From the IMG/VR virus record IMGVR_UViG_3300029705_000021: DNA of 64,000 nt. The stretch is one strand, 5' to 3'. A program made the position numbers and the translations under genes. Of the stretch, positions 53,387-64,000 are shown in pieces. The notes below the pieces were generated by a model that worked only from the letters and a program-made list of their open reading frames with translations, was not told the DNA's origin and did no database searches. The stretch is from a virus (taxonomy: Duplodnaviria > Caudoviricetes). The stretch's first letter is position 1; each line of letters opens with the position of its first letter.

Positions 53387-54340
53387 TTAATTAGTTTCGT
53401 CTACTGCCAATTCTTCTGCTTCTTCCATATTTGGAGTTGTTACTATATATTTGCTAGTTTCTAACAATAAATCATCAATAGATAATTCATTATATATGTA
53501 ATATGGAATTCTAATTAATGGTATTTTATTGTTTAGACAATAGATATTTTTTGCTATATCATGCGAATGTCTTTGTTCATAAGATTCTACATCATTCCAA
53601 CCACCAATTGCTTTAAAATGCTGAATGCCATCATATTCAATAAGATATGAAAGATTATTATTATTATCTATGATGCCAAAATCGTATCTTGGTGTTCCAT
53701 TTGTATCCTCAAATTTAAAATTATCAAAAGTATATTGCGGTTTATATGATATATTATTTACTTTTAAAATAGATGATATTTTTTGTTCGCCAAGTGAATG
53801 AATACAGCCACAGCTTATTGTACGACCTTCTCGTAGATTTCTTGATGGTACGTTAGTAATATTACCACAATCACACTGACATTCCCAATAAAGTACTCCT
53901 GGAGCGTCCCCAGTTCCTTTTTTTAATACAGTCAACAAACCAAATTTTTGATCACTAATATCAACACATCTATTTTGGGCTAATTCAACATTATAACAAC
54001 CACAACTTTTAGTATTACCTGATTTTAAATCAGTAGATACAACATCAACAACATTTCCACATTCGCATTGACATTTATATATCTTTTGTCTATGTTTTGT
54101 TCTTCTGTCTAAAAGTTCTATTACAGTTAAACGCTCAAATTTTTGACCAACCAAGTTTTCATTTTTTAAACAACCACATGATAATGTTATTCCTCCAGTG
54201 AGTGCAGTACCTCGAATTGGCTTAATGTTACCACACTCACATTCACATACCCATTTTGTTGGATTTTTATATGGGAAATCTCTATATAATACTGTTAATC
54301 TCCCAAACTTTTGTCCTGTTAAATCTTTAAATCTTCCCAT
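53387..54340 (-). CDS. Homing-endonuclease-like protein (three GQKFGRLTV/CxCxCG repeats plus PD-(D/E)XK domain)
   Basis: Repeated CECG...SCGC units; RYDF...IEYDGIQH...LIRIPY. Confidence 0.75.
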   Translation of the reverse strand: MGRFKDLTGQKFGRLTVLYRDFPYKNPTKWVCECECGNIKPIRGTALTGGITLSCGCLKNENLVGQKFERLTVIELLDRRTKHRQKIYKCQCECGNVVDVVSTDLKSGNTKSCGCYNVELAQNRCVDISDQKFGLLTVLKKGTGDAPGVLYWECQCDCGNITNVPSRNLREGRTISCGCIHSLGEQKISSILKVNNISYKPQYTFDNFKFEDTNGTPRYDFGIIDNNNNLSYLIEYDGIQHFKAIGGWNDVESYEQRHSHDIAKNIYCLNNKIPLIRIPYYIYNELSIDDLLLETSKYIVTTPNMEEAEELAVDETN

Positions 54341-54349
54341 ATCTTCACA

Positions 54350-55615
54350 TTATCCATGATATTTTACTAAAAACTCATTATCAACAGCTTTAAAACTATG
54401 AACACCATCTAAACTTCTGAACACAAGTCCTTCTCTCATACCACCATAAGTTGCAGCTTCACCACCAGCCATAGCCAACACTTCTTCACAAGTATCAGGA
54501 AGAACAATATCAGTTGCTACAATTGGAACTGTTGGAACATTATATTTGTCCATAAGTTCTTTCATTTCAATAGGATTAAGGCGTTTTGTTGTTCCATCTT
54601 TGTATCCAAAAATTACATTGAACACTTCGAATACATGCTCTTTTAAACCATAATCTCTTTTCTGAATTCCTTCTCCAAATGTTTCACCCTGAATAGTTAC
54701 AAATTCATATTCATCTGTAAGTAAAGCTTCTAAAATATTTTTAATTGAATATTTATCTGCCATTTCAGTATAAACATTTATATCATACCACGAACCATCT
54801 TTACGATTTGTCATGACAACGTTTCTAGAACAAACAAAATATTCTTGATTTTTACCATGACCTTTTAAAGACATTGTGGTGCTCGTCCCATCTCGTTTTT
54901 CTGTACCGATCCACTTAGTGTTAATAGAATGTACATGTGAAAAACAGTTTTGAACTCTCTCTTCGTCTGTCTTAACAATATGTGAAGGGAAACTCTTAAC
55001 ACCATTCTTTTTATCTCCACCAAGAATTAAATACAATAGTTTCTTAGCAAACACATGCTTCATACACCAACGACCAAATCTACTCTTTGCAAGTTTAGGA
55101 TGTCTATTCATCATACGTTGATATTTTGCATTTGGATTATTCTTGTTGCTTTTTCTCTTATTATCTTCTGGATCTGCATATGTAACTCCTAATTTTGATG
55201 TAAGGAAATCACCTTCTTCAAATGATTCAATTCCACCAGTTTCAGTCTCTGCTACAATAGTCATGCCATATGAATCTGCATGAATTGTCCAACCAAAATC
55301 TTGAGCAGACATTAATAGTCCTTGTGAATAGAAATTACCAATTTTATTTCCTTCTGCATCTTTTAAGGCAAACTTTTGTGTCTTGATTTTTCCATGATAT
55401 TTTTCCGTAAAAGCAAACTCTGGTTTAGAGGTGTCGAGTTTTGAATCAATTTCAAAATAAATTCCTAAGTCACCTGGCTTAAAAGCACCAACTGGGATCA
55501 TACACGTCCATCCACCTACTTTAGCACACTCAACTCTGTCTCTTCCATGAATCGGTTCAATACTATCAACTCTTACAACATAAACTAATTCTCTTTGTCC
55601 ATCTTTGTTTAACAT
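54350..55615 (-). CDS. ATP-dependent RNA ligase (DRB0094/Rnl5-like, with an N-terminal OB domain)
   Basis: Nucleotidyltransferase motifs TEKRDGTS, QGETFG, FEVFNV, REGLVFR, SFKAV; YFEIDS and KTDEERVQN. Confidence 0.9.
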   Translation of the reverse strand: MLNKDGQRELVYVVRVDSIEPIHGRDRVECAKVGGWTCMIPVGAFKPGDLGIYFEIDSKLDTSKPEFAFTEKYHGKIKTQKFALKDAEGNKIGNFYSQGLLMSAQDFGWTIHADSYGMTIVAETETGGIESFEEGDFLTSKLGVTYADPEDNKRKSNKNNPNAKYQRMMNRHPKLAKSRFGRWCMKHVFAKKLLYLILGGDKKNGVKSFPSHIVKTDEERVQNCFSHVHSINTKWIGTEKRDGTSTTMSLKGHGKNQEYFVCSRNVVMTNRKDGSWYDINVYTEMADKYSIKNILEALLTDEYEFVTIQGETFGEGIQKRDYGLKEHVFEVFNVIFGYKDGTTKRLNPIEMKELMDKYNVPTVPIVATDIVLPDTCEEVLAMAGGEAATYGGMREGLVFRSLDGVHSFKAVDNEFLVKYHG

Positions 55616-55678
55616 CTATTAATTTCACATCCTTTCATCTATTTTTAATTAGTCTAACTATTTATTTATTACCATATC

Positions 55679-55987
55679 TTACTTGTTATTAACCTTTACA
55701 GAACCAGTAGCCTTCTGAATATTCTTCATCAATTGAATATTATCGTTAATCATAAGAGCCAAAGCCTGATCCTCTGTGAATCCTGCATTTACATATGCAT
55801 CATACATATTCTTCTTTACCTTTGCTACGACAGCTGGGTGTTCTGTGTTGTTAGAATAATCCTTATAAACTTCTACTACTTCTTGTGCGAGTTCATATAC
55901 CATAGGCTTATACTTAGCAATTAATTCCTTAATTGTAGGTGTTAATACTTCTGGATTTTCCATTAATAAACTTAAAATTGTTTCCAT
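55679..55987 (-). CDS. Hypothetical protein
   Basis: RBS; YDAYVNAGFTEDQALAL motif. Confidence 0.6.
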   Translation of the reverse strand: METILSLLMENPEVLTPTIKELIAKYKPMVYELAQEVVEVYKDYSNNTEHPAVVAKVKKNMYDAYVNAGFTEDQALALMINDNIQLMKNIQKATGSVKVNNK

Positions 55988-55999
55988 TTTTTATCTCCT

Positions 56000-56350
56000 T
56001 TACTTCACTATCTTTACTTTACAACCATACATCTTCTCTAAATCAGCCATACTAACCTCTTTAATCTTCTCTTCATAAATAAGATACTTGTTATCAATAG
56101 CATTTAAAGTAGTCATGTCGTGTTGGTCTGTCACTCTGTAAACCTTAATAATTCTGTTATCCTTACCATCGTACTTAAATGTTAAATCATCATTAATCAT
56201 ATCTAAAGAACGATACTTATGAATAACTTCGCCTTTGTTATTCTTAAACCATTTGATCAAATCGCCCTTGGGAGTGCCACGAAGAACAACACCATAGCTG
56301 CCTTTACTACTAAGGACAACATCACTAGTCTTTAATCCACTTAACTTCAT
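56000..56350 (-). CDS. Hypothetical protein
   Basis: RBS; C-terminal EVSMADLEKMYGCKVKIVK motif common in phage ORFs. Confidence 0.6.
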   Translation of the reverse strand: MKLSGLKTSDVVLSSKGSYGVVLRGTPKGDLIKWFKNNKGEVIHKYRSLDMINDDLTFKYDGKDNRIIKVYRVTDQHDMTTLNAIDNKYLIYEEKIKEVSMADLEKMYGCKVKIVK

Positions 56351-56382
56351 AATCTTTTCATTCCTTTCTTTATTGTATATTT

Positions 56383-57441
56383 TTAATTAGTTTCAAAATT
56401 TGTCATCTTGTGATTTTCATCTACAATACCATAGCTTTTCAAAATTTCCATTTCTTGTTCATATGCAACGCAGCCTGAAAGCATAGCAATAATTTCTTCT
56501 TTTAAATTATTTAATTCATCTAACTGTTTATTAAATTCTGAAGACACTCGCTTAAATTCATTATTAGATTCTACTGTCAAAGGTAATGTAAGAGAAAATG
56601 AAGGTACAACTACATTTTTAATTTCATTTTCTTCGACATATGTATTATACTGTTCTTTTAATTGATTAATAAAGATATGATTTTTATCTGCTTCTACAAT
56701 TCTTCTCTGTGCATTGTCCAGTGCTTTATTAATTGCATCTTGTTTTCTCTTAAAATACAGGTCAACTACCTGCTGATTTTTGATCTCTTTCATTTTTGTT
56801 TCCTCACTTTCTTTAATTTCTTTTAAATTATTGTTTACTACATCTTGAATATAATTTGAATAACTTGCAGTATTGACTGTAGTTGCTGCTGGGAATAAAA
56901 TATCAATATCACTACTAAGATAATAAGTATCTAATGCATCAGCATTTTCAAACAAACATTTCTTAGTTAATTCTTCTTCGTATGTTGTATCTGATACTTT
57001 TTCTAAACAATTTACAGATAATGAAACTCTTACAATGTTATTTTCTACATTAAATATATCAACAATATATCTTTCAAGATTACGAATGCTCTCATCAGGT
57101 TTATATATTGTGCCACAACAATTATGAATTTTAGAACCTTGTGGATAATTAATTCTAACTTTTTCTCCAATCTTAAACTTAAAATTATTGACAACTTCGC
57201 AACAATTACATGGAATCCAAAAATCATATAATTCTCCATAAGATCTTTGTTGTGGATATGCTATATCTGATGGATTTTGTTTACCATCTATATGTACAGA
57301 ATATTTACCAGTACCAGCAACATAGTTAACAATACCAATATCGCCAATTTCCACAGCTTCATTATGTTTATAAGGTACTTTCTTAATAATCTTAACATAA
57401 TCACCGACTTTAGCTTTATCTTGGTTTTTATAAACTGCCAT
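56383..57441 (-). CDS. Hypothetical protein with two SH3/KOW-like domains and a coiled coil
   Basis: AKVGDYVKI and FKIGEKVRI repeats; AAGGAG RBS. Confidence 0.6.
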   Translation of the reverse strand: MAVYKNQDKAKVGDYVKIIKKVPYKHNEAVEIGDIGIVNYVAGTGKYSVHIDGKQNPSDIAYPQQRSYGELYDFWIPCNCCEVVNNFKFKIGEKVRINYPQGSKIHNCCGTIYKPDESIRNLERYIVDIFNVENNIVRVSLSVNCLEKVSDTTYEEELTKKCLFENADALDTYYLSSDIDILFPAATTVNTASYSNYIQDVVNNNLKEIKESEETKMKEIKNQQVVDLYFKRKQDAINKALDNAQRRIVEADKNHIFINQLKEQYNTYVEENEIKNVVVPSFSLTLPLTVESNNEFKRVSSEFNKQLDELNNLKEEIIAMLSGCVAYEQEMEILKSYGIVDENHKMTNFETN

Positions 57442-57484
57442 TGTATTCTCCTTTCTTATAAAATTAGTTAGTTTAAACTAAGAA

Positions 57485-57559
57485 TTACGATTAATAGATT
57501 CGAACTATTGACCTCCACTTTTTTATATAGTGGTGCTCTCGCCACTGAGCTAAATCGCA
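57485..57559 (-). tRNA. tRNA-like gene with an aberrant 9-nt anticodon loop (AUAUAAAAA)
   Basis: Acceptor TGCGATT/AATCGTA, D arm GCTC/GAGC, anticodon stem CCACT/AGTGG, T arm AATAG-TTCGAAT-CTATT. Confidence 0.75.
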
Positions 57560-57617
57560 ACTGAATTCATACTTTAATTAAAGTCACTCATAAATCTGCG
57601 CACCTATTATGAGTAAA

Positions 57618-57689
57618 CTCTAGTAACGAGAATCGAACTCGTGACATGTGGATTTCCGTCCACTGTTCTGCCAACTGAACTATACTAGA
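57618..57689 (-). tRNA. tRNA-like gene (Asn-like body) with an aberrant 6-nt anticodon loop (CGGAAA)
   Basis: Acceptor TCTAGTA/TACTAGA, G73, D arm GTTC/GAAC, stem GTGGA/TCCAC, T arm ACGAG-TTCGATT-CTCGT. Confidence 0.75.
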
Positions 57690-57699
57690 GTATAAAACA

Positions 57700-57795
57700 A
57701 TAGAATTAAAAAGAAATGTGTGGATCATTTTTTCATCTTTACCATTATCATTCTTCACATAATTGACTCTGTTTATGTCTCGCAATTAATTCTAT
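57700..57795 (-). ncRNA. Unassigned structured RNA, copy 1 of 2
   Basis: Closing stem ATAGAATTA/TAATTCTAT; core GTGAAGAATGATAATGGTAAA...AATGATCCACACATT shared with 57921-58020. Confidence 0.6.
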
Positions 57796-57811
57796 ATGTT
57801 TTATTTTATTA

Positions 57812-57912
57812 GACAGTTTAATCGCCCTCACTGACAACGGAGTTGTACATCAACTCACATGGAACAGTTTCACCATTAGCATCTGGCTGAATACGTCAGC
57901 ACTCCAACTGCC
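57812..57912 (-). ncRNA. Unassigned five-way-junction RNA
   Basis: Closing GGCAGTT/AACTGTC plus hairpins GCTGA/TCAGC, ATGG/CCAT, GAGTTG/CAACTC and GTTGTC/GGCGAT. Confidence 0.5.
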
Positions 57913-57920
57913 AAGTCAAA

Positions 57921-58020
57921 ATAGAATTATAAGTAATGTGTGGATCATTGTTATTGTCTTTTACCATTATCATTCTTCACGTTATTGACTATGTTTTTAA
58001 CGTCTCTCAGATAATTCTAT
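57921..58020 (-). ncRNA. Unassigned structured RNA, copy 2 of 2
   Basis: Same closing stem and core as 57700-57795. Confidence 0.6.
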
Positions 58021-58029
58021 TTATTTTTT

Positions 58030-58550
58030 AAGATGCATCCCCAGGCTATGATCATCTCACCCAGTATACAGTAGTGTTTCGCACTTGCATGGCACACTCT
58101 GCAGAAGCCTTGCGCTTAAAAGATATTTTTTCACACCTTAAACCTCTCAGCCATAAAAATATCAAAAACGTATCGGAGCACCCTAACACTAACAACTTGC
58201 AATTTGCTGCTCCTTTCCGTATCCAATTCACTGATACTATTTTTATCATAACCCACAATGATAAAGGAGATCACCACCTCGTCCTACCGCTAACCGTAAC
58301 ATACGATTTACTAAGACTTCCCTATCTAATTCACTGTTTCTTTTTCTCGCATTTCAACCCTTATGCATTGCTAAAAGAATACTAGAAAACAAGTCCATAA
58401 CCCAAATACTTATCAACATGATAGATAATAAGTAGAGTAAACTGGAGTTCCAATGCTCTACAAAATTTCATGTGTTATGTTTCCAAAATATACATATATG
58501 TAACAATGTTTCTGTGTGGTTTATAGTCATATGAAACACTAAAATCGTAG
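58030..58550 (-). ncRNA. Probable ROOL large structured ncRNA (5' boundary approximate)
   Basis: Ordered blocks GGTTGAAATGCGAG, TTAGTAAATCGT, AGTGAATTGGATACGGAAAG, GGGTGCTCCGATACG, GAGAGGTT..AGGTGTGA, AAGTGCGAAACAC and GGGTGAGATGAT..TAGCCT match my recollection of ROOL. Size and the tRNA-cluster, Firmicute-phage context fit. Confidence 0.75.
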
Positions 58551-58556
58551 ACCTAA

Positions 58557-58648
58557 CGGAGACTCTGGAACTCGAATCCAGACACCGAATTACTTCGATT
58601 ACTCACTCCTTAGCAGGGAGCTGCCTTACCAATTAGGCTTAAGTCTCC
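58557..58648 (-). tRNA. tRNA-Ser(GCT)
   Basis: GGAGACT/AGTCTCC, anticodon loop CTGCTAA, long variable arm, G73; CCA not encoded. Confidence 0.9.
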
Positions 58649-58897
58649 AGATATAATACCGACACACCATACGGTATCTTGATTGCTTTCACTATGCCTT
58701 TGTAATCCTCGCTTCCGCAATCTTTCTCGTCTATTCTTCTGTTGGCATACAGGACGATGGACATTCGTAATACTCTATAATGTAACTGCTAGTTTTCCGA
58801 CCTATTCTAACCCACCTCAAAGGTAACAGTCCGTATAATTATAAAGCGCAGGCTTACTCCACACCTATCTGGTTTATCGAGCGAAGACAGCTCGGCT

Positions 58898-58985
58898 TGT
58901 TAGAGGAAGGATTTGAACCTTCAAGATATTTCCTATCTACTAAGTAGTACTCACTCAATGCCTTACCATTTCGAGCCACTCTAAC
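58898..58985 (-). tRNA. Class II tRNA-like gene with a degenerate anticodon arm (loop GAGTACT, nominal GTA, no U33)
   Basis: GTTAGAG/CTCTAAC acceptor, variable hairpin AGATA/TATCT, T arm GAAGG-TTCAAAT-CCTTC. Confidence 0.65.
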
Positions 58986-59111
58986 AGATTGTGGCAAATG
59001 CTTAAAGTAGACCGCCACTCTTCTACACATAGCGCATTTATAAGACCATATACTCAAACTCACTGCGCTGTTTTGTTTACCTTGTGAGACCCATTCGTAT
59101 ATGGAATTTTT

Positions 59112-59178
59112 CAAGACACCATTTACACTATTATTCACCTAAAGAAAGTATGTACTTAAATGTAGCTGTTAGTGTCTT
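59112..59178 (-). ncRNA. ACAGCAA-motif RNA (variant ACAGCTA); cargo loop unclear
   Basis: AAGACAC-TA-ACAGCTA...GTGTCTTG; first element downstream of the promoter at 59208-59236. Confidence 0.65.
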
Positions 59179-59207
59179 TTGTTGTTTGTAAGTTTTTTGT
59201 TGTATTG

Positions 59208-59236
59208 ACTATACCACATTACGTGGTATTTGTCAA
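59208..59236 (-). promoter_or_regulatory. SigmaA-type promoter for the downstream ncRNA block (motif RNA, tRNA-Ser, ROOL)
   Basis: TTGACA-17 nt-TATAGT with extended TG. Confidence 0.75.
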
Positions 59237-59264
59237 TACTTATTTGTAATTTTAATTAGTTTAA

Positions 59265-60770
59265 TTAAATTACTTCTTTTAATGCTTCTTCTACCATGTT
59301 ATAACGTTCTTTATTAAGTTCTGCAATTAAACACTTATATGGATCAACTTCACCATTCATAACCATATTAATTAAGTTTACACTGTATCCAGACATCAAT
59401 ACAACGCCATATTCATTGCTTTGTAATGGGATAACATTTCTAGAACCAGATCCTGCTACATTCCAAAAGATTAATCTTGGAAGATGATAGTTATGTGCTT
59501 TGTACATATCACTGATATTTTCAAATAAAGCTTTTGTAAAGTTATGACTATGCGCATCAAACTGCATATCACTGATTACCACAATATTTCTAGGCATTTC
59601 TTCTTGTGGAAGATTATTCTTAATAGCAACATCTAAAACAAGTTTAAAAACTGCTTCAATATTTGTATTGCTACAATCATCTTCTTTATATGTCTTTACA
59701 AGCTTATCATGTAAATTATCATATCCAGACAAATCAATTAATTTAGGTCTTGCACTAAAAGTAATAAACTGATTAGCAAACTGTCCTTCACATCTTTCAG
59801 ACATATAAATTGCTAATGCTGTACTAACATCTAATGGTTTTCCACTATCAGCCCATGACATACTACCAGAACCATCTCTAACAACTAATGTATTGCCAGT
59901 TGATTCAAAATTCGGAAGTGCTTTCCACATTTCTTCTAATGCAATATCCTTATTTTGTAAGTAATATCCTCTGCCATATTTATGTACAATTTCATCTGGG
60001 AACAGAACTTTTGAATTAATCTTAACATTCTTATCTCCACGTTCAAGAGCTGCCAAATACTCTCTACGTCTTTCTTCATCGTTTCTAAGGAATGCACTGT
60101 TGTAAATAAGGTTACTACGACTAGGTACTGCTGAGTAATTAATCTCATTCCACTGTTTAGCAGACATCTTTACTTCAACTACATCTAAGTAAGCACGAAG
60201 TTTAGATAAAGTTTTTCTGTATTGTCTCTCAGTCATGCCAATTTCTTTATAAATAATCTTAGCAAGTCTTTTTGTTTCTTTAGAAGAAGCGTTAACACTT
60301 GGAAGCCATTTTGCAATAAGACTACATGGTTTATTGTCCATCATATTCTTGGCATCTTCATTAAGCTGCTTCTTAATAATTGCAATAACGTCAGTCTTTA
60401 ATTCTGTATCAAGTAAACCTAATACATCATCATATCTACCAAACTCTGGAATTAAAGCAATTACTGCCTTAGCAACAGATGGATGATTCTTTGCTAAATA
60501 TTTCATGATTACTCTAAAAGTTCTTCTCTCGCCAATTCCTTCACGAGCATCTCTAACATAAAATAACCACTTCATTGCTAACATCTTGTTCTCATAAAAT
60601 GCATCTACAAATTTTGCAGCAATTGTATCTTCTGTCATTTTTCTTAAAGTTGTAACTTGAAAATTAAGATCTAACAAATTTTTGCCAGAAGTCTTATATC
60701 CAATTGCTCCATTTGTAGTAATAGCTTTTTCATTTTTCATTTCGTTTTTTAATCCATCCATAAAACTCAT
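59265..60770 (-). CDS. TROVE/Ro60-like protein (DUF2828-type helical repeat plus vWA/MIDAS domain)
   Basis: TTNGA, LFYVRDAREGIGER, FGRYDD, IAKWLPS, YRKTLS; vWA motifs VVRDGSGSM, ITFS, TNIEAVF, ISDMQFD, IFWNV. Confidence 0.85.
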   Translation of the reverse strand: MSFMDGLKNEMKNEKAITTNGAIGYKTSGKNLLDLNFQVTTLRKMTEDTIAAKFVDAFYENKMLAMKWLFYVRDAREGIGERRTFRVIMKYLAKNHPSVAKAVIALIPEFGRYDDVLGLLDTELKTDVIAIIKKQLNEDAKNMMDNKPCSLIAKWLPSVNASSKETKRLAKIIYKEIGMTERQYRKTLSKLRAYLDVVEVKMSAKQWNEINYSAVPSRSNLIYNSAFLRNDEERRREYLAALERGDKNVKINSKVLFPDEIVHKYGRGYYLQNKDIALEEMWKALPNFESTGNTLVVRDGSGSMSWADSGKPLDVSTALAIYMSERCEGQFANQFITFSARPKLIDLSGYDNLHDKLVKTYKEDDCSNTNIEAVFKLVLDVAIKNNLPQEEMPRNIVVISDMQFDAHSHNFTKALFENISDMYKAHNYHLPRLIFWNVAGSGSRNVIPLQSNEYGVVLMSGYSVNLINMVMNGEVDPYKCLIAELNKERYNMVEEALKEVI

Positions 60771-60810
60771 AATTCTTTTCTCCTTTTTGAATTGATATAT
60801 TTTTCAATTC

Positions 60811-60912
60811 CAAGACACTTTAATGCACCAGATATTCTGGCTACTGGATTTGAACCAGATTAAAACTTTTGCAGAGTTTGTATTTACCATTTAACTTTGC
60901 TGTAAGTGCCTT
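60811..60912 (-). ncRNA. ACAGCAA-motif RNA enclosing an acceptor-less tRNA-Cys(GCA) (D-like loop, anticodon arm, T arm)
   Basis: AAGGCACTT-ACAGCAA...AAATGGTA...AAACT-CTGCAAA-AGTTT...CTGG-TTCAAAT-CCAG...AAGTGTCTTG. Confidence 0.8.
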
Positions 60913-60924
60913 TATGGAATTAAT

Positions 60925-61043
60925 GCAGAGTGGGAAGATTCGAACTTCCGTCTCGGTCTTAACAGGACAATTGTAAAATTGCAGTTGAAGTTTTTTTTCA
61001 AAACTCAATTAATTACGTGTTCTATCCGCTGAACTACACTCCA
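60925..61043 (-). tRNA. tRNA-Asn(GTT)-like gene with a 47-nt motif insertion (60969-61015) in the anticodon stem
   Basis: Removing the insert restores CGGTC-CTGTTAA-GACCG. The insert has GAGTTTTG/AAAACTTC then ACTGCAA. Confidence 0.8.
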
Positions 61044-61058
61044 CTTATTTTATTATTA

Positions 61059-61126
61059 CAAGACGGTTTTAAGACTATTAAAATATTTACAGTATTCTCA
61101 AGTTTTAATATTGCTGTATCCGTCTT
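61059..61126 (-). ncRNA. ACAGCAA-motif RNA carrying a Tyr(GTA) anticodon stem-loop
   Basis: AAGACGG-AT-ACAGCAA...AGAATA-CTGTAAA-TATTTT...CCGTCTTG. Confidence 0.75.
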
Positions 61127-61129
61127 AAA

Positions 61130-61253
61130 GTCGGGATGTGGGACTCGAACCCACGACCACGTGCTCCCCAAGCAATAGAAAAAAATTGCTGTTTACGTCT
61201 TTTACAAGACACATTATCTTTTTACGTGCTCTAACCAGCTGAGCTAATCCCGA
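61130..61253 (-). tRNA. tRNA-Pro(GGG)-like gene with a 50-nt motif insertion (61175-61224) in the anticodon stem
   Basis: Removing the insert restores CGTGC-TTGGGGA-GCACG. The insert has GTGTCTTG-TAA-AAGACGT-AA-ACAGCAA. Confidence 0.85.
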
Positions 61254-61256
61254 CAG

Positions 61257-61394
61257 TGAGGAAGATAGGATTCGAACCTATACGTCATTTAAGACAGGAG
61301 ATTTTCAGTCTCCACTATTTAAAAGTTGCTGTAAATGTCTTGCTAGACACTTTTGTGAATTTTATCCTGCGTCTGCCAGTTCCGCCACTTCCTC
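61257..61394 (-). tRNA. tRNA with a Leu-type body, GAA (Phe) anticodon and an approximately 54-nt motif insertion (about 61312-61365)
   Basis: D arm GCGGAACTGGCAGACGC, long variable arm, A73; GGAGA-CTGAAAA-TCTCC. The insert has GTGTCT-AGCA-AGACAT-TT-ACAGCAA. Confidence 0.8.
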
Positions 61395-61411
61395 ATGTTT
61401 GATGGCTTTGT

Positions 61412-61527
61412 TGGAGCAATTTGGAATCGAACCAAAGGTAAAAACCTGCTGAATGTTTTCAAAATTAAAATTGCTGTAAGCGATTGCCATCCTATTCGCT
61501 TTATAAACCGCCATCCAGACTTGCTCC
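61412..61527 (-). ncRNA. Degenerate tRNA-like RNA with an internal ACAGCAA-motif hairpin
   Basis: Acceptor GGAGCAA/TTGCTCC, T arm TTTGG-TTCGATT-CCAAA, internal AGCGA/TCGCT-T-ACAGCAA; D and anticodon arms eroded. Confidence 0.6.
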
Positions 61528-61545
61528 ATATTATTTAGTTTTTTA

Positions 61546-61608
61546 CAAGACACTTTAAACTTATCAGATCCCCAATCAGATGTTTTATTCGATTGCTGTT
61601 TGTGTCTT
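61546..61608 (-). ncRNA. ACAGCAA-motif RNA carrying a Pro(GGG) anticodon stem-loop
   Basis: AAGACAC-AA-ACAGCAA...ATCTGA-TTGGGGA-TCTGAT...GTGTCTTG. Confidence 0.8.
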
Positions 61609-61646
61609 TAAACATAGGCTCAACATCAAGCCTATAGATTAAAAGC

Positions 61647-61781
61647 TTACATTGAAGCTTCCATATTTCTTATTTCTCTTTTGAGCTTTTTAACAGCACC
61701 TGGACATTTGATGTTCTTATTACTTGCCTCAAGCTTCTGTAATCTGTTCTTCTTTAATGCTAAAATCTCTGTCTGTGTCAT
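61647..61781 (-). CDS. 44-aa basic protein inside the RNA array, missed by the ORF track (MTQTEILALKKNRLQKLEASNKNIKCPGAVKKLKREIRNMEASM)
   Basis: AAGGAG RBS, ATG...TAA, followed by a hairpin. Confidence 0.7.
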   Translation of the reverse strand: MTQTEILALKKNRLQKLEASNKNIKCPGAVKKLKREIRNMEASM

Positions 61782-61852
61782 TCTTATTTCTCCTTGTTAT
61801 AAATTTTTAAGTAATCATTCACAAATTTTTTAGTTGTGTATATTTACTTGAA

Positions 61853-61925
61853 CAGGGCTAGTTGGATTCGAACCAACGAGATGCAGGAGTCAAAGTCCTG
61901 TGCCTTACCGCTTGGCGATAGCCCT
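61853..61925 (-). tRNA. tRNA-Gln(TTG)
   Basis: Canonical cloverleaf, CAGGA-CTTTGAC-TCCTG. Confidence 0.92.
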
Positions 61926-62018
61926 AGACACTTGGTTTTTTAAAGATGACCAAGCAAACATCTAATCTATTTTTACTAGAAAGGAGGCGTATAGGAGATA
62001 TATTGATTTATCTCCGAG

Positions 62019-62090
62019 TGGGTCATGTGGGACTCGAACCCACGACTCTCAAATTAAAAGTTTGATACTCTACCACTGAGTTAATGACCC
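62019..62090 (-). tRNA. tRNA-Lys(TTT)
   Basis: Canonical cloverleaf, TCAAA-CTTTTAA-TTTGA. Confidence 0.92.
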
Positions 62091-62095
62091 ATATA

Positions 62096-62163
62096 CAAGG
62101 CGGCTATTTTGGCTATCACAAATTAAAAGTTTGTTGCTTGTTCAGATTTGCTGTAACCGCCTT
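62096..62163 (-). ncRNA. ACAGCAA-motif RNA carrying a Lys(TTT) anticodon stem-loop
   Basis: AAGGCGG-TT-ACAGCAA...ACAAA-CTTTTAA-TTTGT...CCGCCTTG. Confidence 0.85.
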
Positions 62164-62319
62164 TATACATTTGTATTTTTTCTTATTGTCTCTGGAAGAA
62201 ACTCAGTATTGTTTTGGCAAACTAAATGCCTACCACAAATAACAACATTTATCTTCAGTTTTATGTATTTTTGATTAGTTAAGAGATTGAACAACCAAGT
62301 CCTCTCTTGAACTGTAATC

Positions 62320-62589
62320 ATTATATCATAACTGTTTTTATTTGTCAAGAACTTTTTTCATTTTTTAAAATTAATTAGTCTTAATTATTTTTTAAAGCTT
62401 TGAGATATTTTCTCTGCTCTTGACTCTTCAATGATATCATACTTGTCAAATTTTGTCAAGCACTTTTTTCAAATTTTTTGTAAATAAAATTTTAGTTTGT
62501 TTAGTAGCATATTATGTGTAAGAAACTCAACAATCAAGTGGTTCTCTTAAGCACAGTTATATATTATCATAACTTCCAAATAATGTCAA
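62320..62589 (-). promoter_or_regulatory. Three tandem sigmaA-type promoters feeding the tRNA/motif-RNA/TROVE operon
   Basis: TTGACA-17-TATAAT (62320-62348), TTGACA-17-TATCAT (62431-62459) and TTGACA-17-TAATAT (62561-62589), all with extended TG. Confidence 0.75.
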
Positions 62590-62618
62590 TAGTTTTTTCA
62601 AAAATATTTTTAATTAGT

Positions 62619-63551
62619 TTAGTGAGCAGCTAGATCTGCTTCGTGCAACAAATCTAATGATTTAATTAGTTCATCACCAAGCAACAATCTGTCTTTTTCT
62701 CTCGCCTTATCACTATCTCGCCAATCCATAAAATACTTCATATGTAAATTAATAAGTAAAGATACATACAAAAGATCTTTATCGCTCCATTCAGGATGCA
62801 TTTTTCTTACATAGAATAAGCTTAGGTAAGCTCCAACATTATGATGACCATAGAATTTAGCATCACCATAAATTTCTCCATTATCATCAATATCATAAAA
62901 CTTCGTACTAGGCTTACCACAATCATGTAACAGTGTAGCTGTAATCAATCTTATATCATTTGTTCTATCCTTAATATAATCACAAGCAGCGAGCATATGA
63001 CTTCCAACAGTCAATGAATGATGAATATTATCATGAGATATCACACGCCATCTGCACATATCATCTTTAATATTGTATTCAAATCCTGGTAAACCTTTAT
63101 ATTTCCACCAAACAATCTGAATATCATCAAATCCTTCAGTATACCAAGGAGTCTCGAAGCTTTTATACATTCTCTCAAGAACTTCTTCAGGAACATGTCT
63201 ATCTCTAGCACAGTTATTCGCTAAGCAAAACTCATATGGGGTAGCAAATAAAACGCAAATCTTTTCACAAGAAATGCCTTTAAGCTCATTATTCAGAAAA
63301 TGCACTCTTTTCTTGCGTGAAAGATTTGTAGCATCATATATAACATTCTTACCAGCTCTCAAGTCGTCCTTAATTCTCTGATGTAATATCTTGAATACCA
63401 ATTCATTCTTACTCTGGTCGTTCACATCACCTAATTCTGCTCTAATTTCATCGCTAGATAAAACAACCCAGTCTTTATTGTATTTATATTGTTCGCAATA
63501 TGTAGATTTCCCCGATGCAGGTAAACCCACTGTAACATATATTTTACTCAT
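62619..63551 (-). CDS. Polynucleotide kinase (AAA_33) fused to an HD phosphoesterase; RNA end-healing enzyme
   Basis: GLPASGKST, SSDEIR, YDATNL, NCARDR; HSLTVGSH, LLHDCGKP, FYGHHNVG, LHEAD. Confidence 0.85.
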   Translation of the reverse strand: MSKIYVTVGLPASGKSTYCEQYKYNKDWVVLSSDEIRAELGDVNDQSKNELVFKILHQRIKDDLRAGKNVIYDATNLSRKKRVHFLNNELKGISCEKICVLFATPYEFCLANNCARDRHVPEEVLERMYKSFETPWYTEGFDDIQIVWWKYKGLPGFEYNIKDDMCRWRVISHDNIHHSLTVGSHMLAACDYIKDRTNDIRLITATLLHDCGKPSTKFYDIDDNGEIYGDAKFYGHHNVGAYLSLFYVRKMHPEWSDKDLLYVSLLINLHMKYFMDWRDSDKAREKDRLLLGDELIKSLDLLHEADLAAH

Positions 63552-63578
63552 CTCTATCTCCTTTCTTTTGATGAGGCT

Positions 63579-63607
63579 ATATTACCATACATTTACAAAT
63601 ATGTCAA
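63579..63607 (-). promoter_or_regulatory. SigmaA-type promoter of the kinase-HD gene
   Basis: TTGACA-17 nt-TAATAT with extended TG. Confidence 0.7.
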
Positions 63608-63722
63608 TACCTATTTTGTATTTTTCTTCAATTCGCAAAGTAAATATTTTTGATTAGTTTGTAGACAACGAGGCTACTGTATCAATAATAATATGTTATG
63701 AACAGTAGCCTCTTAGTACTAC

Positions 63723-63881
63723 TTAACGCTCTAACTCTTCGAGTCTTCTTAAACGTCTTAGAGATTCTTTTAATTCAGCAATTCGATCGAGAACAGCCCA
63801 TCTACGAGTATCATCTGATTTCATTTCAGCCAACAATGCCTCTAATTCCTGAATTTCATTAAGAATTTTTTTCTTTGTCAT
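63723..63881 (-). CDS. 52-aa coiled-coil protein missed by the ORF track (MTKKKILNEIQELEALL...LEELER)
   Basis: AAAGGAG RBS, ATG...TAA, downstream hairpin. Confidence 0.6.
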   Translation of the reverse strand: MTKKKILNEIQELEALLAEMKSDDTRRWAVLDRIAELKESLRRLRRLEELER

Positions 63882-64000
63882 ATCGACTTCTCTCCTTTCT
63901 CATATTTATAGCTGAATATTAATTTATGTTTTTAATTAATCAGCTATATATAATATGTAAGAAAATGAGAGCTTGGAAAACAAAAATTTGTTTTTTATCA

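What the first reader, a model, noticed from the sequence alone, without database searches (positions are those of the whole stretch)
59112..62163. Candidate new system: a TROVE/Ro60-like protein with an array of nine tag-bearing, anticodon-presenting RNAs
Seen: nine elements flanking the TROVE-vWA gene share a helix (AAGRCRY paired with RYGYCUUG) followed by about 2 nt and unpaired ACAGCAA (variants ACUGCAA, ACAGCUA). The helix covaries between copies (GACAC/GTGTC, GACGG/CCGTC, GGCGG/CCGCC, GGCAC/GTGTC) while ACAGCAA is nearly fixed, as expected for a protein-binding RNA tag. The tag occurs in two circular permutations: closing a standalone RNA (59112, 60811, 61059, 61546, 62096) or as a hairpin inside a tRNA (60925, 61130, 61257, 61412). 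In the seven clear cases a 7-nt anticodon loop lies 13-22 nt 3' of the tag. Established: Ro60/Rsr binds a Y RNA stem, and bacterial YrlA RNAs join that stem to a tRNA-like domain, but this tag differs from the GNCGAA-type Rsr site as I recall it. Inference: a Y-RNA-like family for the DUF2828 clade that displays a panel of anticodons (Lys, Pro, Phe, Tyr, Asn, Cys) to decoy anticodon nucleases or to recruit repair.
Basis: partly seen in the sequence, partly recalled or inferred. Interest (0 to 1): 0.95.

Follow-up and report, generated by a model that had tools for sequence, protein, structure and literature searches.

The report
Phage Ro60-like protein with handle-tagged RNAs
A gut phage gene for a ring-shaped, Ro60-like RNA-binding protein is surrounded by nine small RNAs that all carry one conserved "handle" attached to anticodon hairpins or whole tRNA bodies; the same pairing recurs in many phages, including a laboratory E. 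coli phage, matches no catalogued RNA family, and is probably a new kind of Y-RNA-like particle.

Summary
Nine elements on the minus strand between 59112 and 62163 share a handle: a 7-bp covarying helix, a 2-nt linker, unpaired ACAGCAA, and a conserved G after the helix's 3' strand. Five are free-standing. Four are grafted into tRNA bodies as a circular permutation.

The flanked gene (59265-60770) is a DUF2828/DUF7788 protein. Its model (pLDDT 95.5) matches full-length Ro60 structures.

The link between RNA and protein holds in both directions:
- Of 78 viral contigs chosen only by the RNA pattern, 68 encode the protein. The base rate among deposited phages is 1.4%.
- In 80 loci chosen only by the protein, all 54 covariance-model hits lie on the gene's strand.

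Cultured phages of Escherichia, Listeria, Staphylococcus, Campylobacter, Bacillus, Enterococcus and Mycobacterium carry the same handle beside the same gene. One is Bas63, whose gp130 is reported to counter the Ppl defence.

No Rfam family matches. I found no published description of the handle. This scan has noted the same class before on other genomes.

The best reading is Y-RNA-like partner RNAs of a divergent phage Ro60, sitting in an RNA healing and sealing locus. Binding and the decoy or repair role are inferred. The tRNA-intron reading is unlikely but not excluded.

The parts
62320..62348 (-). Consensus sigma-70 promoter (12 of 12, extended -10) upstream of the RNA array. Likely start of a unit that runs through the array into the DUF2828 gene.
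   Evidence: No terminator-like site was found between it and the gene. The transcription unit is inferred.
62096..62163 (-). Free-standing handle RNA with an anticodon arm that copies the adjacent tRNA-Lys(UUU).
   Evidence: R1 57.1 bits
62018..62090 (-). Intact tRNA-Lys(UUU), 5 nt downstream of the previous element (context).
61852..61926 (-). Intact tRNA-Gln(UUG) (context).
61546..61608 (-). Free-standing handle RNA. Its arm has one U-U mismatch and the same 7-nt loop as the grafted GGG tRNA at 61130.
   Evidence: R1 54.6 bits
61412..61527 (-). tRNA-like body (acceptor stem and T arm) with a hairpin followed directly by ACAGCAA. No clear anticodon arm.
61257..61394 (-). Long-variable-arm tRNA body with an intact GAA anticodon arm. 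The permuted handle hairpin lies between the D arm and the anticodon stem.
61130..61254 (-). tRNA body with a GGG anticodon. A 50-nt insert carrying the permuted handle splits the anticodon stem after its third base pair.
   Evidence: read directly from the sequence
61059..61126 (-). Free-standing handle RNA with a Tyr-type (GUA) anticodon arm.
   Evidence: R1 51.7 bits
60925..61043 (-). tRNA-Asn(GUU) body. A 47-nt insert after the second pair of the anticodon stem carries the ACUGCAA variant.
   Evidence: Rfam tRNA 33.8 bits with the insert
60811..60912 (-). Free-standing handle RNA closing a D-like loop, a Cys-type (GCA) arm and a T arm. It ends about 25 nt before the ribosome-binding site of the DUF2828 gene.
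   Evidence: partial Rfam tRNA match 60843-60898; R1 32.5 bits, not in the training set
59265..60770 (-). DUF2828/DUF7788 protein, 501 aa. Ro60-like ring plus a vWA domain with an intact MIDAS motif.
59208..59236 (-). Second strong promoter-like site (11 of 12), directly after the gene's stop codon and upstream of the last handle RNA.
59112..59178 (-). Free-standing handle RNA with the ACAGCUA variant. No clear anticodon arm.
   Evidence: R1 44.1 bits
62619..63551 (-). Polynucleotide kinase (P-loop) fused to an HD phosphohydrolase: an RNA end-healing enzyme (context).
54350..55615 (-). RNA ligase with an N-terminal OB domain: an RNA sealing enzyme (context).

Best explanation
The nine elements are partner RNAs of the phage's Ro60-like DUF2828 protein, a divergent counterpart of Y RNAs.

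Shown: the handle is the conserved core. It consists of a 7-bp helix, a G beyond its 3' strand, a 2-nt linker and single-stranded ACAGCAA. The rest is interchangeable tRNA-derived cargo: anticodon hairpins, T and D arms, or a whole tRNA with the handle bulging from the 5' strand of the anticodon stem. The handle travels with DUF2828 genes across very different phages.

Inferred: the array and the gene are transcribed from the promoter at 62348. tRNA-processing enzymes release the interleaved RNAs. The ring protein binds each handle, reading both ends of the short helix and the ACAGCAA strand. The resulting particles present tRNA look-alike parts to tRNA-directed enzymes.

The locus also carries a kinase/HD phosphoesterase and an RNA ligase. 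Given that, the particles most likely act in the contest over tRNA damage. They could work as baits for host anticodon nucleases, or as adaptors that bring damaged tRNAs and repair or decay enzymes together, as Y RNA does for Ro60 and PNPase.
For: Repeat family and geometry.

Protein fold: the AF2 model has pLDDT 95.5. Its top 12 PDB matches are Ro60/TROVE structures aligned over both domains (probability 1.0, TM 0.41-0.60). The MIDAS residues are invariant.

RNA to protein: more than 112 viral stretches match a 22-base handle pattern. Of the 80 listed, 46 have the gene inside the short locus. Of 32 others searched whole, 22 have it elsewhere on the contig, including 11 of the 12 that are at least 90% complete. 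Only 710 of 50,697 deposited phages have the gene.

Protein to RNA: in 80 loci from bacterial assemblies picked by protein alone, 54 of 54 model hits are on the gene's strand, in 30 loci. A simple geometric scan finds 80 same-strand handles against 7 opposite, in 40 loci, where controls give 3-10 loci.

Specificity: in five complete cultured phage genomes, all 11 hits lie within about 4 kb of the gene, and 10 of them within about 1.1 kb.

Breadth: Tyson, EC6, Bas63, LP-125, SEP9, F348, Nate and VRE9_1 all carry the handle.

Conservation: between close relatives the helix and motif change at 0.03 per site, against 0.18 for spacer.

Precedent: canonical Ro60 binds a terminal stem with an adjacent conserved unpaired motif, and its RNAs are encoded within 4 kb on the same strand (PMC4201824). 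Thermus phage phiLo Ro60 binds two such upstream RNAs in gel shifts (PMC12135203).
Against: No binding, expression or processing data exist for any member.

The association is not absolute. One complete 75-kb phage has a handle but no DUF2828 or TROVE gene. A 192-kb contig that is 70% complete has six handles and no such gene. About half of the protein-selected loci show no canonical handle within 5 kb, and Vibrio phage D482 has none within 4 kb.

Bas63 gp130 expressed alone, even in phage T7 which has no such RNAs, counters Ppl. At least one activity of the protein therefore does not need the phage's handle RNAs.

Sequence similarity to Ro60 is marginal (E 0.014, vWA region only), so the RNA-binding mode cannot be carried over with confidence. 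The covariation count on alignment A2 is circular, because its rows were picked for pairing.
Confidence: 0.7

Rival explanations
1. The grafted copies are a new kind of short tRNA intron or mobile insertion. The handle is a recognition signal for an unidentified endonuclease, and the neighbouring kinase/HD enzyme and RNA ligase heal and seal the exons. The free-standing copies would be derivatives or excised forms.
For: The inserts sit at one place, 2-3 bp into the 5' strand of the anticodon stem, and are 42-54 nt long in many different tRNA bodies. Deleting them restores a perfect 5-bp stem and 7-nt loop at 60925 and 61130; at 61257 the arm is already intact beside the insert. A subgroup keeps conserved flanks around the handle in tRNAs with different anticodons. 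Healing and sealing enzymes lie in the locus.
Against: About nine in ten handles are free-standing and not in tRNAs (358 closing versus 33 hairpin). I could draw no bulge-helix-bulge at the junctions by inspection. The inserts are far too short for group I or II introns, and no intron or ribozyme family matches. No splicing endonuclease appears among nine neighbouring ORFs. The handle travels with DUF2828 far more often than with the ligase or kinase (46 versus 11 and 5 of 80 loci). Two grafted tRNAs have bodies that do not fit their anticodons (a long-variable-arm body with GAA; U1-A72 and C73 with GGG), which argues against a decoding role.
Confidence: 0.1
2. The handle is recognised by something other than the DUF2828 protein, such as a host factor, RNase P/Z/E or the repair enzymes. 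In this reading the handle and the gene merely share the tRNA island of large phages.
For: Handles occur on a complete phage genome that lacks the gene. The 7-bp stem plus one unpaired 3' nucleotide resembles an acceptor stem with its discriminator base. The elements are interleaved with tRNAs, so tRNA-processing enzymes must act next to them. gp130 works without them against Ppl.
Against: Many handles lie within 40-300 nt of the gene, even in phages where the gene is not inside a tRNA array, such as SEP9 and Tyson. The enrichment is about 60-fold over the base rate. The conserved G is kept inside the hairpin loop of the grafted copies, where no end processing can be at stake.
Confidence: 0.1
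3. The handles are cis-regulatory operators through which the protein controls its own mRNA, or processing punctuation for the operon. They would not be stable trans-acting RNAs.
For: One copy ends about 25 nt before the gene's ribosome-binding site here. In many loci a copy lies 40-100 nt upstream of the start codon.
Against: There are up to nine copies per locus, including copies downstream of the gene with a promoter of their own (59112-59178). Copies sit inside tRNA bodies. The cargo is enriched in well-formed anticodon arms. Autoregulation could still coexist with the main reading.
Confidence: 0.07
4. The elements are decayed tRNA genes, or chance similarity in AT-rich DNA.
For: The cargo is clearly tRNA-derived, and several tRNAs of the island are aberrant.
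Against: The motif count is 7 against 0.48 expected. The helix geometry is found in 68% of occurrences against 10-18% for controls. The handle is conserved across phages of six bacterial phyla while the helix sequence changes. The strand bias is 54 of 54.
Confidence: 0.02

Closest known systems
Ro60/Rsr with Y RNAs of the YrlA/YrlB type (Chen et al. 2014, PMC4201824; Rfam RF02553)
   Same: A ring protein with a vWA domain. Its small RNAs are encoded within a few kb on the same strand. The RNAs have a terminal stem with an adjacent conserved unpaired motif as the presumed binding site, and tRNA-like modules as cargo. There is a link to RNA repair genes. One handle RNA of mycobacteriophage Tyson is a sub-threshold YrlA match (36.4 bits against a gathering score of 69).
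   Different: The protein is DUF2828/DUF7788, not Pfam TROVE, and is related to Ro60 by fold only. The motif is ACAGCAA after a 7-bp helix and a 2-nt linker, not GNCGAAN0-1G. There are several copies per locus (nine here; one to six in protein-selected loci). The cargo includes true anticodon arms and whole tRNAs with the handle grafted into the anticodon stem. No Rfam hit in this window at E up to 1.
Thermus phage phiLo Ro60 with Yrl1/Yrl2 (PMC12135203; PDB 9KOP, 9L5Y)
   Same: A phage-encoded Ro60-fold protein with partner RNAs directly upstream of its gene. Binding was shown by gel shift, and complexes with host PNPase were formed. Among the best structural matches to the model (ranks 1 and 5).
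   Different: phiLo Ro60 is a canonical TROVE protein. Its RNAs carry CGAA in a bulge, there are two of them, and they have no tRNA parts.
Bas63 (Escherichia phage JohannRWettstein) gp130, reported to counter the Ppl defence (preprint PMC11482910)
   Same: Same protein family: 33% identity over residues 17-492, with DUF2828 and DUF7788 domains. It sits directly upstream of a tRNA array. The authors noted the Ro60-like fold and guessed that some annotated tRNAs may be Y RNAs. I find at least three ACAGCAA handle RNAs in gaps of that array, at 82072-82138, 82239-82296 and 82781-82906.
   Different: The preprint does not identify the RNAs or the motif, and the handle RNAs are not among the annotated tRNAs. 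The reported phenotype needs only the protein.
Stable small RNAs in the phage T4 tRNA gene cluster (species 1 and 2 RNAs; from my own knowledge)
   Same: Non-tRNA small RNAs interleaved with phage tRNAs and released by tRNA-processing enzymes.
   Different: No known shared motif or protein partner. I did not test this comparison here.
Archaeal non-canonical tRNA introns in the anticodon stem (bulge-helix-bulge type; from my own knowledge)
   Same: Short inserts at positions such as 28/29 or 29/30. Removing them restores the anticodon stem.
   Different: No bulge-helix-bulge could be drawn, the host is bacterial, no endonuclease gene is present, and the same module exists mostly outside tRNAs.

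Membership tests
Ro60 / TROVE-vWA proteins | HEAT-repeat ring followed by a vWA domain (fold) | tested here: met
   The AF2 model has pLDDT 95.5 and pTM 0.94. The twelve best Foldseek matches in the PDB are Ro60/TROVE chains aligned over 515-569 columns, probability 1.0, TM 0.41-0.60.
Ro60 / TROVE-vWA proteins | Sequence match to Pfam TROVE (PF05731) | tested here: not met
   Pfam gives only DUF7788, DUF2828 and a weak VWA_2 match at E up to 0.01. A profile of 105 homologues reaches Ro60 chains only at E 0.014-0.46, in the vWA region.
Ro60 / TROVE-vWA proteins | MIDAS motif in the vWA domain | tested here: met
   D299, S301, S303, T369 and D401 are invariant in 105 sequences.
Ro60 / TROVE-vWA proteins | Binds Y RNA stems and misfolded RNA ends | not testable with these tools
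   Needs gel shift, CLIP or a structure.
Y RNA / YrlA (Rfam RF02553) | Encoded within about 4 kb of the Ro gene on the same strand | tested here: met
   All nine elements lie within 1.4 kb of the gene on its strand. The same holds in five complete cultured phages. In protein-selected loci, 54 of 54 hits are on the gene's strand.
Y RNA / YrlA (Rfam RF02553) | Conserved GNCGAAN0-1G (CGAA) motif at the Ro-binding stem | tested here: not met
   The conserved motif here is ACAGCAA, with variants ACUGCAA, ACAGCUA and GCAGCAA. The published motif is quoted.
Y RNA / YrlA (Rfam RF02553) | Match to the Rfam covariance model at its gathering score | tested here: not met
   No YrlA or Y RNA hit in 54000-64000 at E up to 1, nor in the whole window at gathering scores. 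The Tyson element scores 36.4 bits against 69.
Y RNA / YrlA (Rfam RF02553) | tRNA-like domain | tested here: met
   60811-60912 has D-like, anticodon and T arms (partial tRNA hit). Four elements are whole tRNA bodies. EC6, Bas63, Nate and Tyson copies carry a T arm, an acceptor-like hairpin and a D arm in the YrlA order.
tRNA introns (bulge-helix-bulge, group I) | Removal of the insert restores a canonical anticodon arm | tested here: met
   Holds for 60925 (47 nt) and 61130 (50 nt); 61257 keeps an intact arm beside the insert. 61412 has no recognisable arm.
tRNA introns (bulge-helix-bulge, group I) | Bulge-helix-bulge at the junctions, or group I/II core structure | tested here: not met
   By inspection, the first intron bases are not complementary to the first bases of the 3' exon in the window's 61130 insert or in L001 5568. 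The inserts are 42-54 nt long. No intron or ribozyme family matches at E up to 1.
tRNA introns (bulge-helix-bulge, group I) | A splicing endonuclease encoded or available | tested here: inconclusive
   None appears among nine neighbouring ORFs in Pfam and PHROGs, but three of them have no annotation at all.
Small self-cleaving ribozymes near phage tRNAs (HDV-like theta, hammerhead, twister, pistol, hatchet) | Match to the Rfam models | tested here: not met
   No hit at E up to 1 in 54000-64000.

The most novel reading that the evidence does not exclude
The handle is a portable docking tag. With it the phage loads a changeable panel of anticodon hairpins and non-decoding whole tRNAs onto a Ro60-like ring. 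This would create a display of tRNA baits that capture or neutralise host anticodon nucleases and other tRNA-directed immune effectors, or hand cleaved tRNAs to the phage's healing and sealing enzymes. The anticodons would be swapped freely on a fixed scaffold as host defences change.
Probability: 0.25. Interest if true: 0.9.

Novelty: new variant of a known kind. Interest (0 to 1): 0.72.

Why it matters
Ro60 and its Y RNAs are conserved from bacteria to humans, yet what the RNAs do is still debated. Here a divergent Ro60 clade, present in about 1.4% of deposited phages and in many gut-bacterial assemblies, appears with a different, sharply defined RNA handle. Its cargo is plainly modular: anticodon arms, T and D arms, or whole tRNAs.

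If the pairing is real, it would:
- add a large uncatalogued RNA family;
- explain unannotated gaps and spurious small ORFs in phage tRNA arrays;
- tie a Ro60-type particle directly to the phage-host conflict over tRNA cleavage and repair.

The system also occurs in Bas63, a phage of E. coli K-12 whose homologue already has a published anti-defence phenotype. The open questions are therefore testable with routine genetics and biochemistry.

Tried and rejected
1. A second helix directly inside the handle, which would make ACAGCAA a simple bulge between two stacked helices. Observed 85 of 273 elements with 4 bp or more, against 75.8 in mismatched controls. Not supported and dropped.

2. Anticodon triplets evolving faster than everything else. 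A first look at 9 pairs suggested this (0.22 against about 0.05). With 43 independent contrasts the rate (0.17) equals that of spacer (0.18), p = 0.9. Only the weaker statement survives: the anticodon is free to change while the handle is conserved.

3. Known RNA families. No Y RNA, YrlA, ribozyme, intron or ROOL/GOLLD match in the region at E up to 1. The whole window gives only five tRNAs at gathering scores.

4. Bulge-helix-bulge introns. None could be drawn by inspection.

5. Close phage relatives in the deposited collection. None; only tRNA-sized and short gene matches.

6. Literature. DUF2828 gives five unrelated papers. ACAGCAA with tRNA gives nothing relevant. A 2026 preprint on bacterial tRNA mimics concerns other motifs.

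7. One accession for Bas63 guessed from memory was wrong. The right one came from the preprint.

8. The covariation statistics on alignment A2 are not independent evidence, because its rows were chosen for perfect pairing. I rely on the control-heptamer comparison instead.

Full report
**What is in the window.** The window is the last 64 kb of a 106.7-kb IMG/VR virus record that is about 63% complete. Every ORF of 90 aa or more from 29 kb to the end is on the minus strand, apart from a few short ones nested inside larger genes. Between 57.4 and 62.4 kb lies a non-coding island with tRNAs around a 501-aa gene at 59265-60770. A P-loop polynucleotide kinase fused to an HD phosphohydrolase lies upstream (62619-63551). 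An RNA ligase with an N-terminal OB domain lies downstream (54350-55615), next to an HNH endonuclease.

**The observation.** The degenerate pattern for the tag gives 7 matches against 0.48 expected, all in this island, and none elsewhere in the record.

Five elements are closed by the helix: 62096-62163, 61546-61608, 61059-61126, 60811-60912 and 59112-59178. In these the order is:
- 5' strand of the helix;
- two linker nucleotides;
- ACAGCAA;
- a variable interior;
- 3' strand of the helix;
- a G.

Four elements are tRNA bodies in which the order is turned round: 3' strand, G, a small loop, 5' strand, linker, ACAGCAA.
- In 61130-61254 a 50-nt insert splits the anticodon stem after three pairs.
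- In 60925-61043 a 47-nt insert splits it after two pairs.
- In 61257-61394 the insert lies between the D arm and an intact anticodon arm.
- 61412-61527 has an acceptor stem and a T arm but no recognisable anticodon arm.

Seven elements have a 7-nt loop of anticodon type 13-22 nt after the motif. The triplets are UUU, GGG (twice), GUA, GCA, GUU and GAA. The copy at 62096 mimics the arm of the tRNA-Lys that follows it 5 nt later.

**Is the handle a real RNA feature?** I collected 121 viral loci. In them, ACAGCAA is followed or preceded by a helix of 7 bp or more in the expected geometry in 68% of 574 occurrences. Six control heptamers of the same composition give 10-18%.

Among 273 distinct closed elements there are 76 different helix strands. 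The nucleotide after the 3' strand, which played no part in the selection, is G in 93%. A strict anticodon arm (5 bp, 7-nt loop, U at loop position 2, purine at position 6) occurs in 98 of the 273, against 12.4 expected from shuffled interiors. The loop most often starts 14-16 nt after the motif.

The permuted, tRNA-grafted form is also recurrent. There are 32 distinct cases with a T arm downstream, against none for five control motifs. The insert usually splits the anticodon stem after two or three pairs and is 42-54 nt long.

Between close relatives, the helix and the motif change at about 0.03 per site. The anticodon triplet changes at 0.17 and the spacer at 0.18. The handle is therefore the constrained part and the anticodon is free to change.

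A covariance model built from 42 closed elements (A2, R1) recovers the window copy left out of training. It finds nothing else in the 64 kb. The pair counts on A2 are not independent evidence, because its rows were chosen for pairing.

**The protein.** Pfam assigns DUF2828 and DUF7788, and PHROGs calls it an RNA-binding protein. The family is large: 6,705 cluster representatives at E up to 0.001.

A model built on 105 diverse homologues has pLDDT 95.5. Its twelve best PDB matches are full-length Ro60 or TROVE structures from frog, human, Deinococcus and Thermus phage phiLo. The vWA MIDAS residues are invariant.

At the sequence level the relation to Ro60 is marginal. This is a distant Ro60 relative, not a member of Pfam TROVE.

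**Association, RNA to protein.** A 22-base pattern for one common handle version finds more than 112 stretches in IMG/VR.
- Of the 80 listed, 46 contain a DUF2828 homologue (34-61% identical) inside the short fetched locus. In many of them the gene is within a few hundred bases of the handle.
- Of 32 others searched as whole contigs, 22 have the gene elsewhere, including 11 of the 12 that are at least 90% complete.
- In total 68 of 78 records have the gene. The base rate among deposited phages is 710 of 50,697.
- The ligase and the kinase co-occur far less often: 11 and 5 of 80.

**Association, protein to RNA.** In 80 loci of bacterial assemblies chosen by the protein alone (mostly Lachnospiraceae and other Clostridia), the model gives 54 hits at E up to 0.01. 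All 54 are on the gene's strand, in 30 loci. A geometric scan finds 80 same-strand handles against 7 opposite, in 40 loci. Control motifs give 3-10 loci.

In five complete cultured phage genomes of 86-167 kb, all 11 hits lie within about 4 kb of the gene and none elsewhere.

**Breadth and the link to known biology.** The same handle flanks the same gene in phages of Mycobacterium (Tyson), Escherichia (EC6, Bas63), Listeria (LP-125), Staphylococcus (SEP9), Campylobacter (F348), Bacillus (Nate) and Enterococcus (VRE9_1). The helix consensus differs between these lineages but is similar within a genome, while ACAGCAA and the distal G stay fixed.

In Tyson, one handle RNA contains a T arm, an acceptor-like hairpin and a D arm, and it is a sub-threshold match to Rfam YrlA. 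EC6, Bas63 and Nate have copies with the same three parts in the same order. This connects the class to the YrlA RNAs that Chen et al. found next to Ro60 genes in bacteria and mycobacteriophages. Their conserved motif is GNCGAAN0-1G. Thermus phage phiLo Ro60 binds RNAs with a CGAA bulge.

Bas63 gp130 is a DUF2828/DUF7788 protein. A preprint reports three things about it: it looks like Ro60; it counters the Ppl defence, even when moved into T7; and some neighbouring tRNA genes might be Y RNAs. The handle RNAs I find in Bas63 lie in unannotated gaps of the tRNA array. One of them overlaps a small reverse ORF that is probably spurious.

I found no paper that describes the handle. This scan has noted the same class on other genomes before. 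Those notes agree with what I tested here.

**How it most likely works.** Three things are shown: the anatomy, the conservation pattern and the two-way association.

The rest is inferred.
- The array and the gene form one unit from the perfect promoter at 62348. The last RNA is expressed from a second promoter at 59236.
- The tRNAs interleaved with the handle RNAs provide the processing sites that release them.
- The ring protein binds the handle.
- The cargo presents tRNA parts to enzymes that act on tRNAs.

Two grafted tRNAs have bodies that do not fit their anticodons, and anticodons are exchanged on otherwise conserved scaffolds between relatives (L001 against L004). Both points fit baits better than decoding tRNAs.

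The neighbouring healing and sealing enzymes place the particle in the conflict over tRNA cleavage. So do an RtcB ligase near the LP-125 gene and phosphoesterases near the Nate, Tyson and VRE9_1 genes. Whether the particle acts as a decoy, a repair adaptor or a regulator of the ring cannot be decided here.

**Rivals.** The intron reading is kept alive by the precise, recurrent insertion site and by the repair enzymes. It is weakened by four points:
- free-standing copies predominate;
- I found no bulge-helix-bulge and no endonuclease;
- the handle associates with DUF2828 rather than with the ligase or kinase;
- some tRNA bodies do not match their anticodons.

A partner other than DUF2828 is suggested by one complete phage and one large contig that have handles but no such gene, and by the RNA-independent action of gp130. 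Cis-regulation of the gene by the copy in its leader may coexist with the main reading.

**Verdict.** The interpretation as a Y-RNA-like family for the DUF2828 clade is well supported by comparative evidence but has not been tested biochemically. The decoy or repair function is a hypothesis. This is a new variant of the Ro60 / Y RNA kind, not a categorically new system.

Noticed in passing
window 57700-57802 and 57920-58027 (minus strand): Two diverged copies of an RNA-like element of about 100 nt, with conserved blocks 220-225 nt apart, between two aberrant tRNAs and a tRNA-like stretch. No Rfam match. It carries no ACAGCAA handle.
   Followed up: partly
window 58030-58550 (minus strand): About 520 nt of non-coding sequence downstream of tRNA-Ser. 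Another note of this scan took it for ROOL, but no ROOL, GOLLD or any other Rfam family matches it at E up to 1. What it is remains open.
   Followed up: partly
window 57484-57560 and 57617-57690 (minus strand): Two tRNAs with all four stems intact but a 9-nt and a 6-nt anticodon loop (Rfam alignments). Altered loops of this kind are reported elsewhere as a way for phage tRNAs to escape anticodon nucleases.
   Followed up: no
window 61648-61782 (minus strand): A small ORF of about 45 codons with a good ribosome-binding site. It sits inside the RNA array, between tRNA-Gln and the handle RNA at 61546, and is followed by a hairpin.
   Followed up: no
L001 7494-7557 against the same place in L004: Two closely related phages carry the same handle RNA, but the anticodon is changed from GUU to GCU. 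There is a compensating change in the arm, and ACAGCAA has become GCAGCAA.
   Followed up: partly
L048 (G017, a complete 75-kb phage with terminal repeats) and L041/L067 (G013, 192 kb): These contigs have handle RNAs (one, and six in a cluster) but no DUF2828 or TROVE gene. They are exceptions to the pairing.
   Followed up: partly
L138 (Bas63, MZ501086) 82748-82900: The annotated reverse-strand ORF bas63_0137 overlaps a forward-strand handle RNA with a tRNA-like domain (82781-82906). The ORF is probably an annotation artefact.
   Followed up: partly
L001 4300-5270, L009 4300-4690, L128 598-1476: A band-7/SPFH-type gene lies just upstream of the RNA island in two related gut phages (read from the translated sequence) and in mycobacteriophage Tyson (annotated as such). 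It may be a further conserved neighbour of the system.
   Followed up: no
window 56383-57441, 56000-56350, 55679-55987 (minus strand): Three ORFs between the tRNA island and the RNA ligase have no Pfam match and no informative PHROG match. They are candidates for further components of the RNA locus.
   Followed up: no
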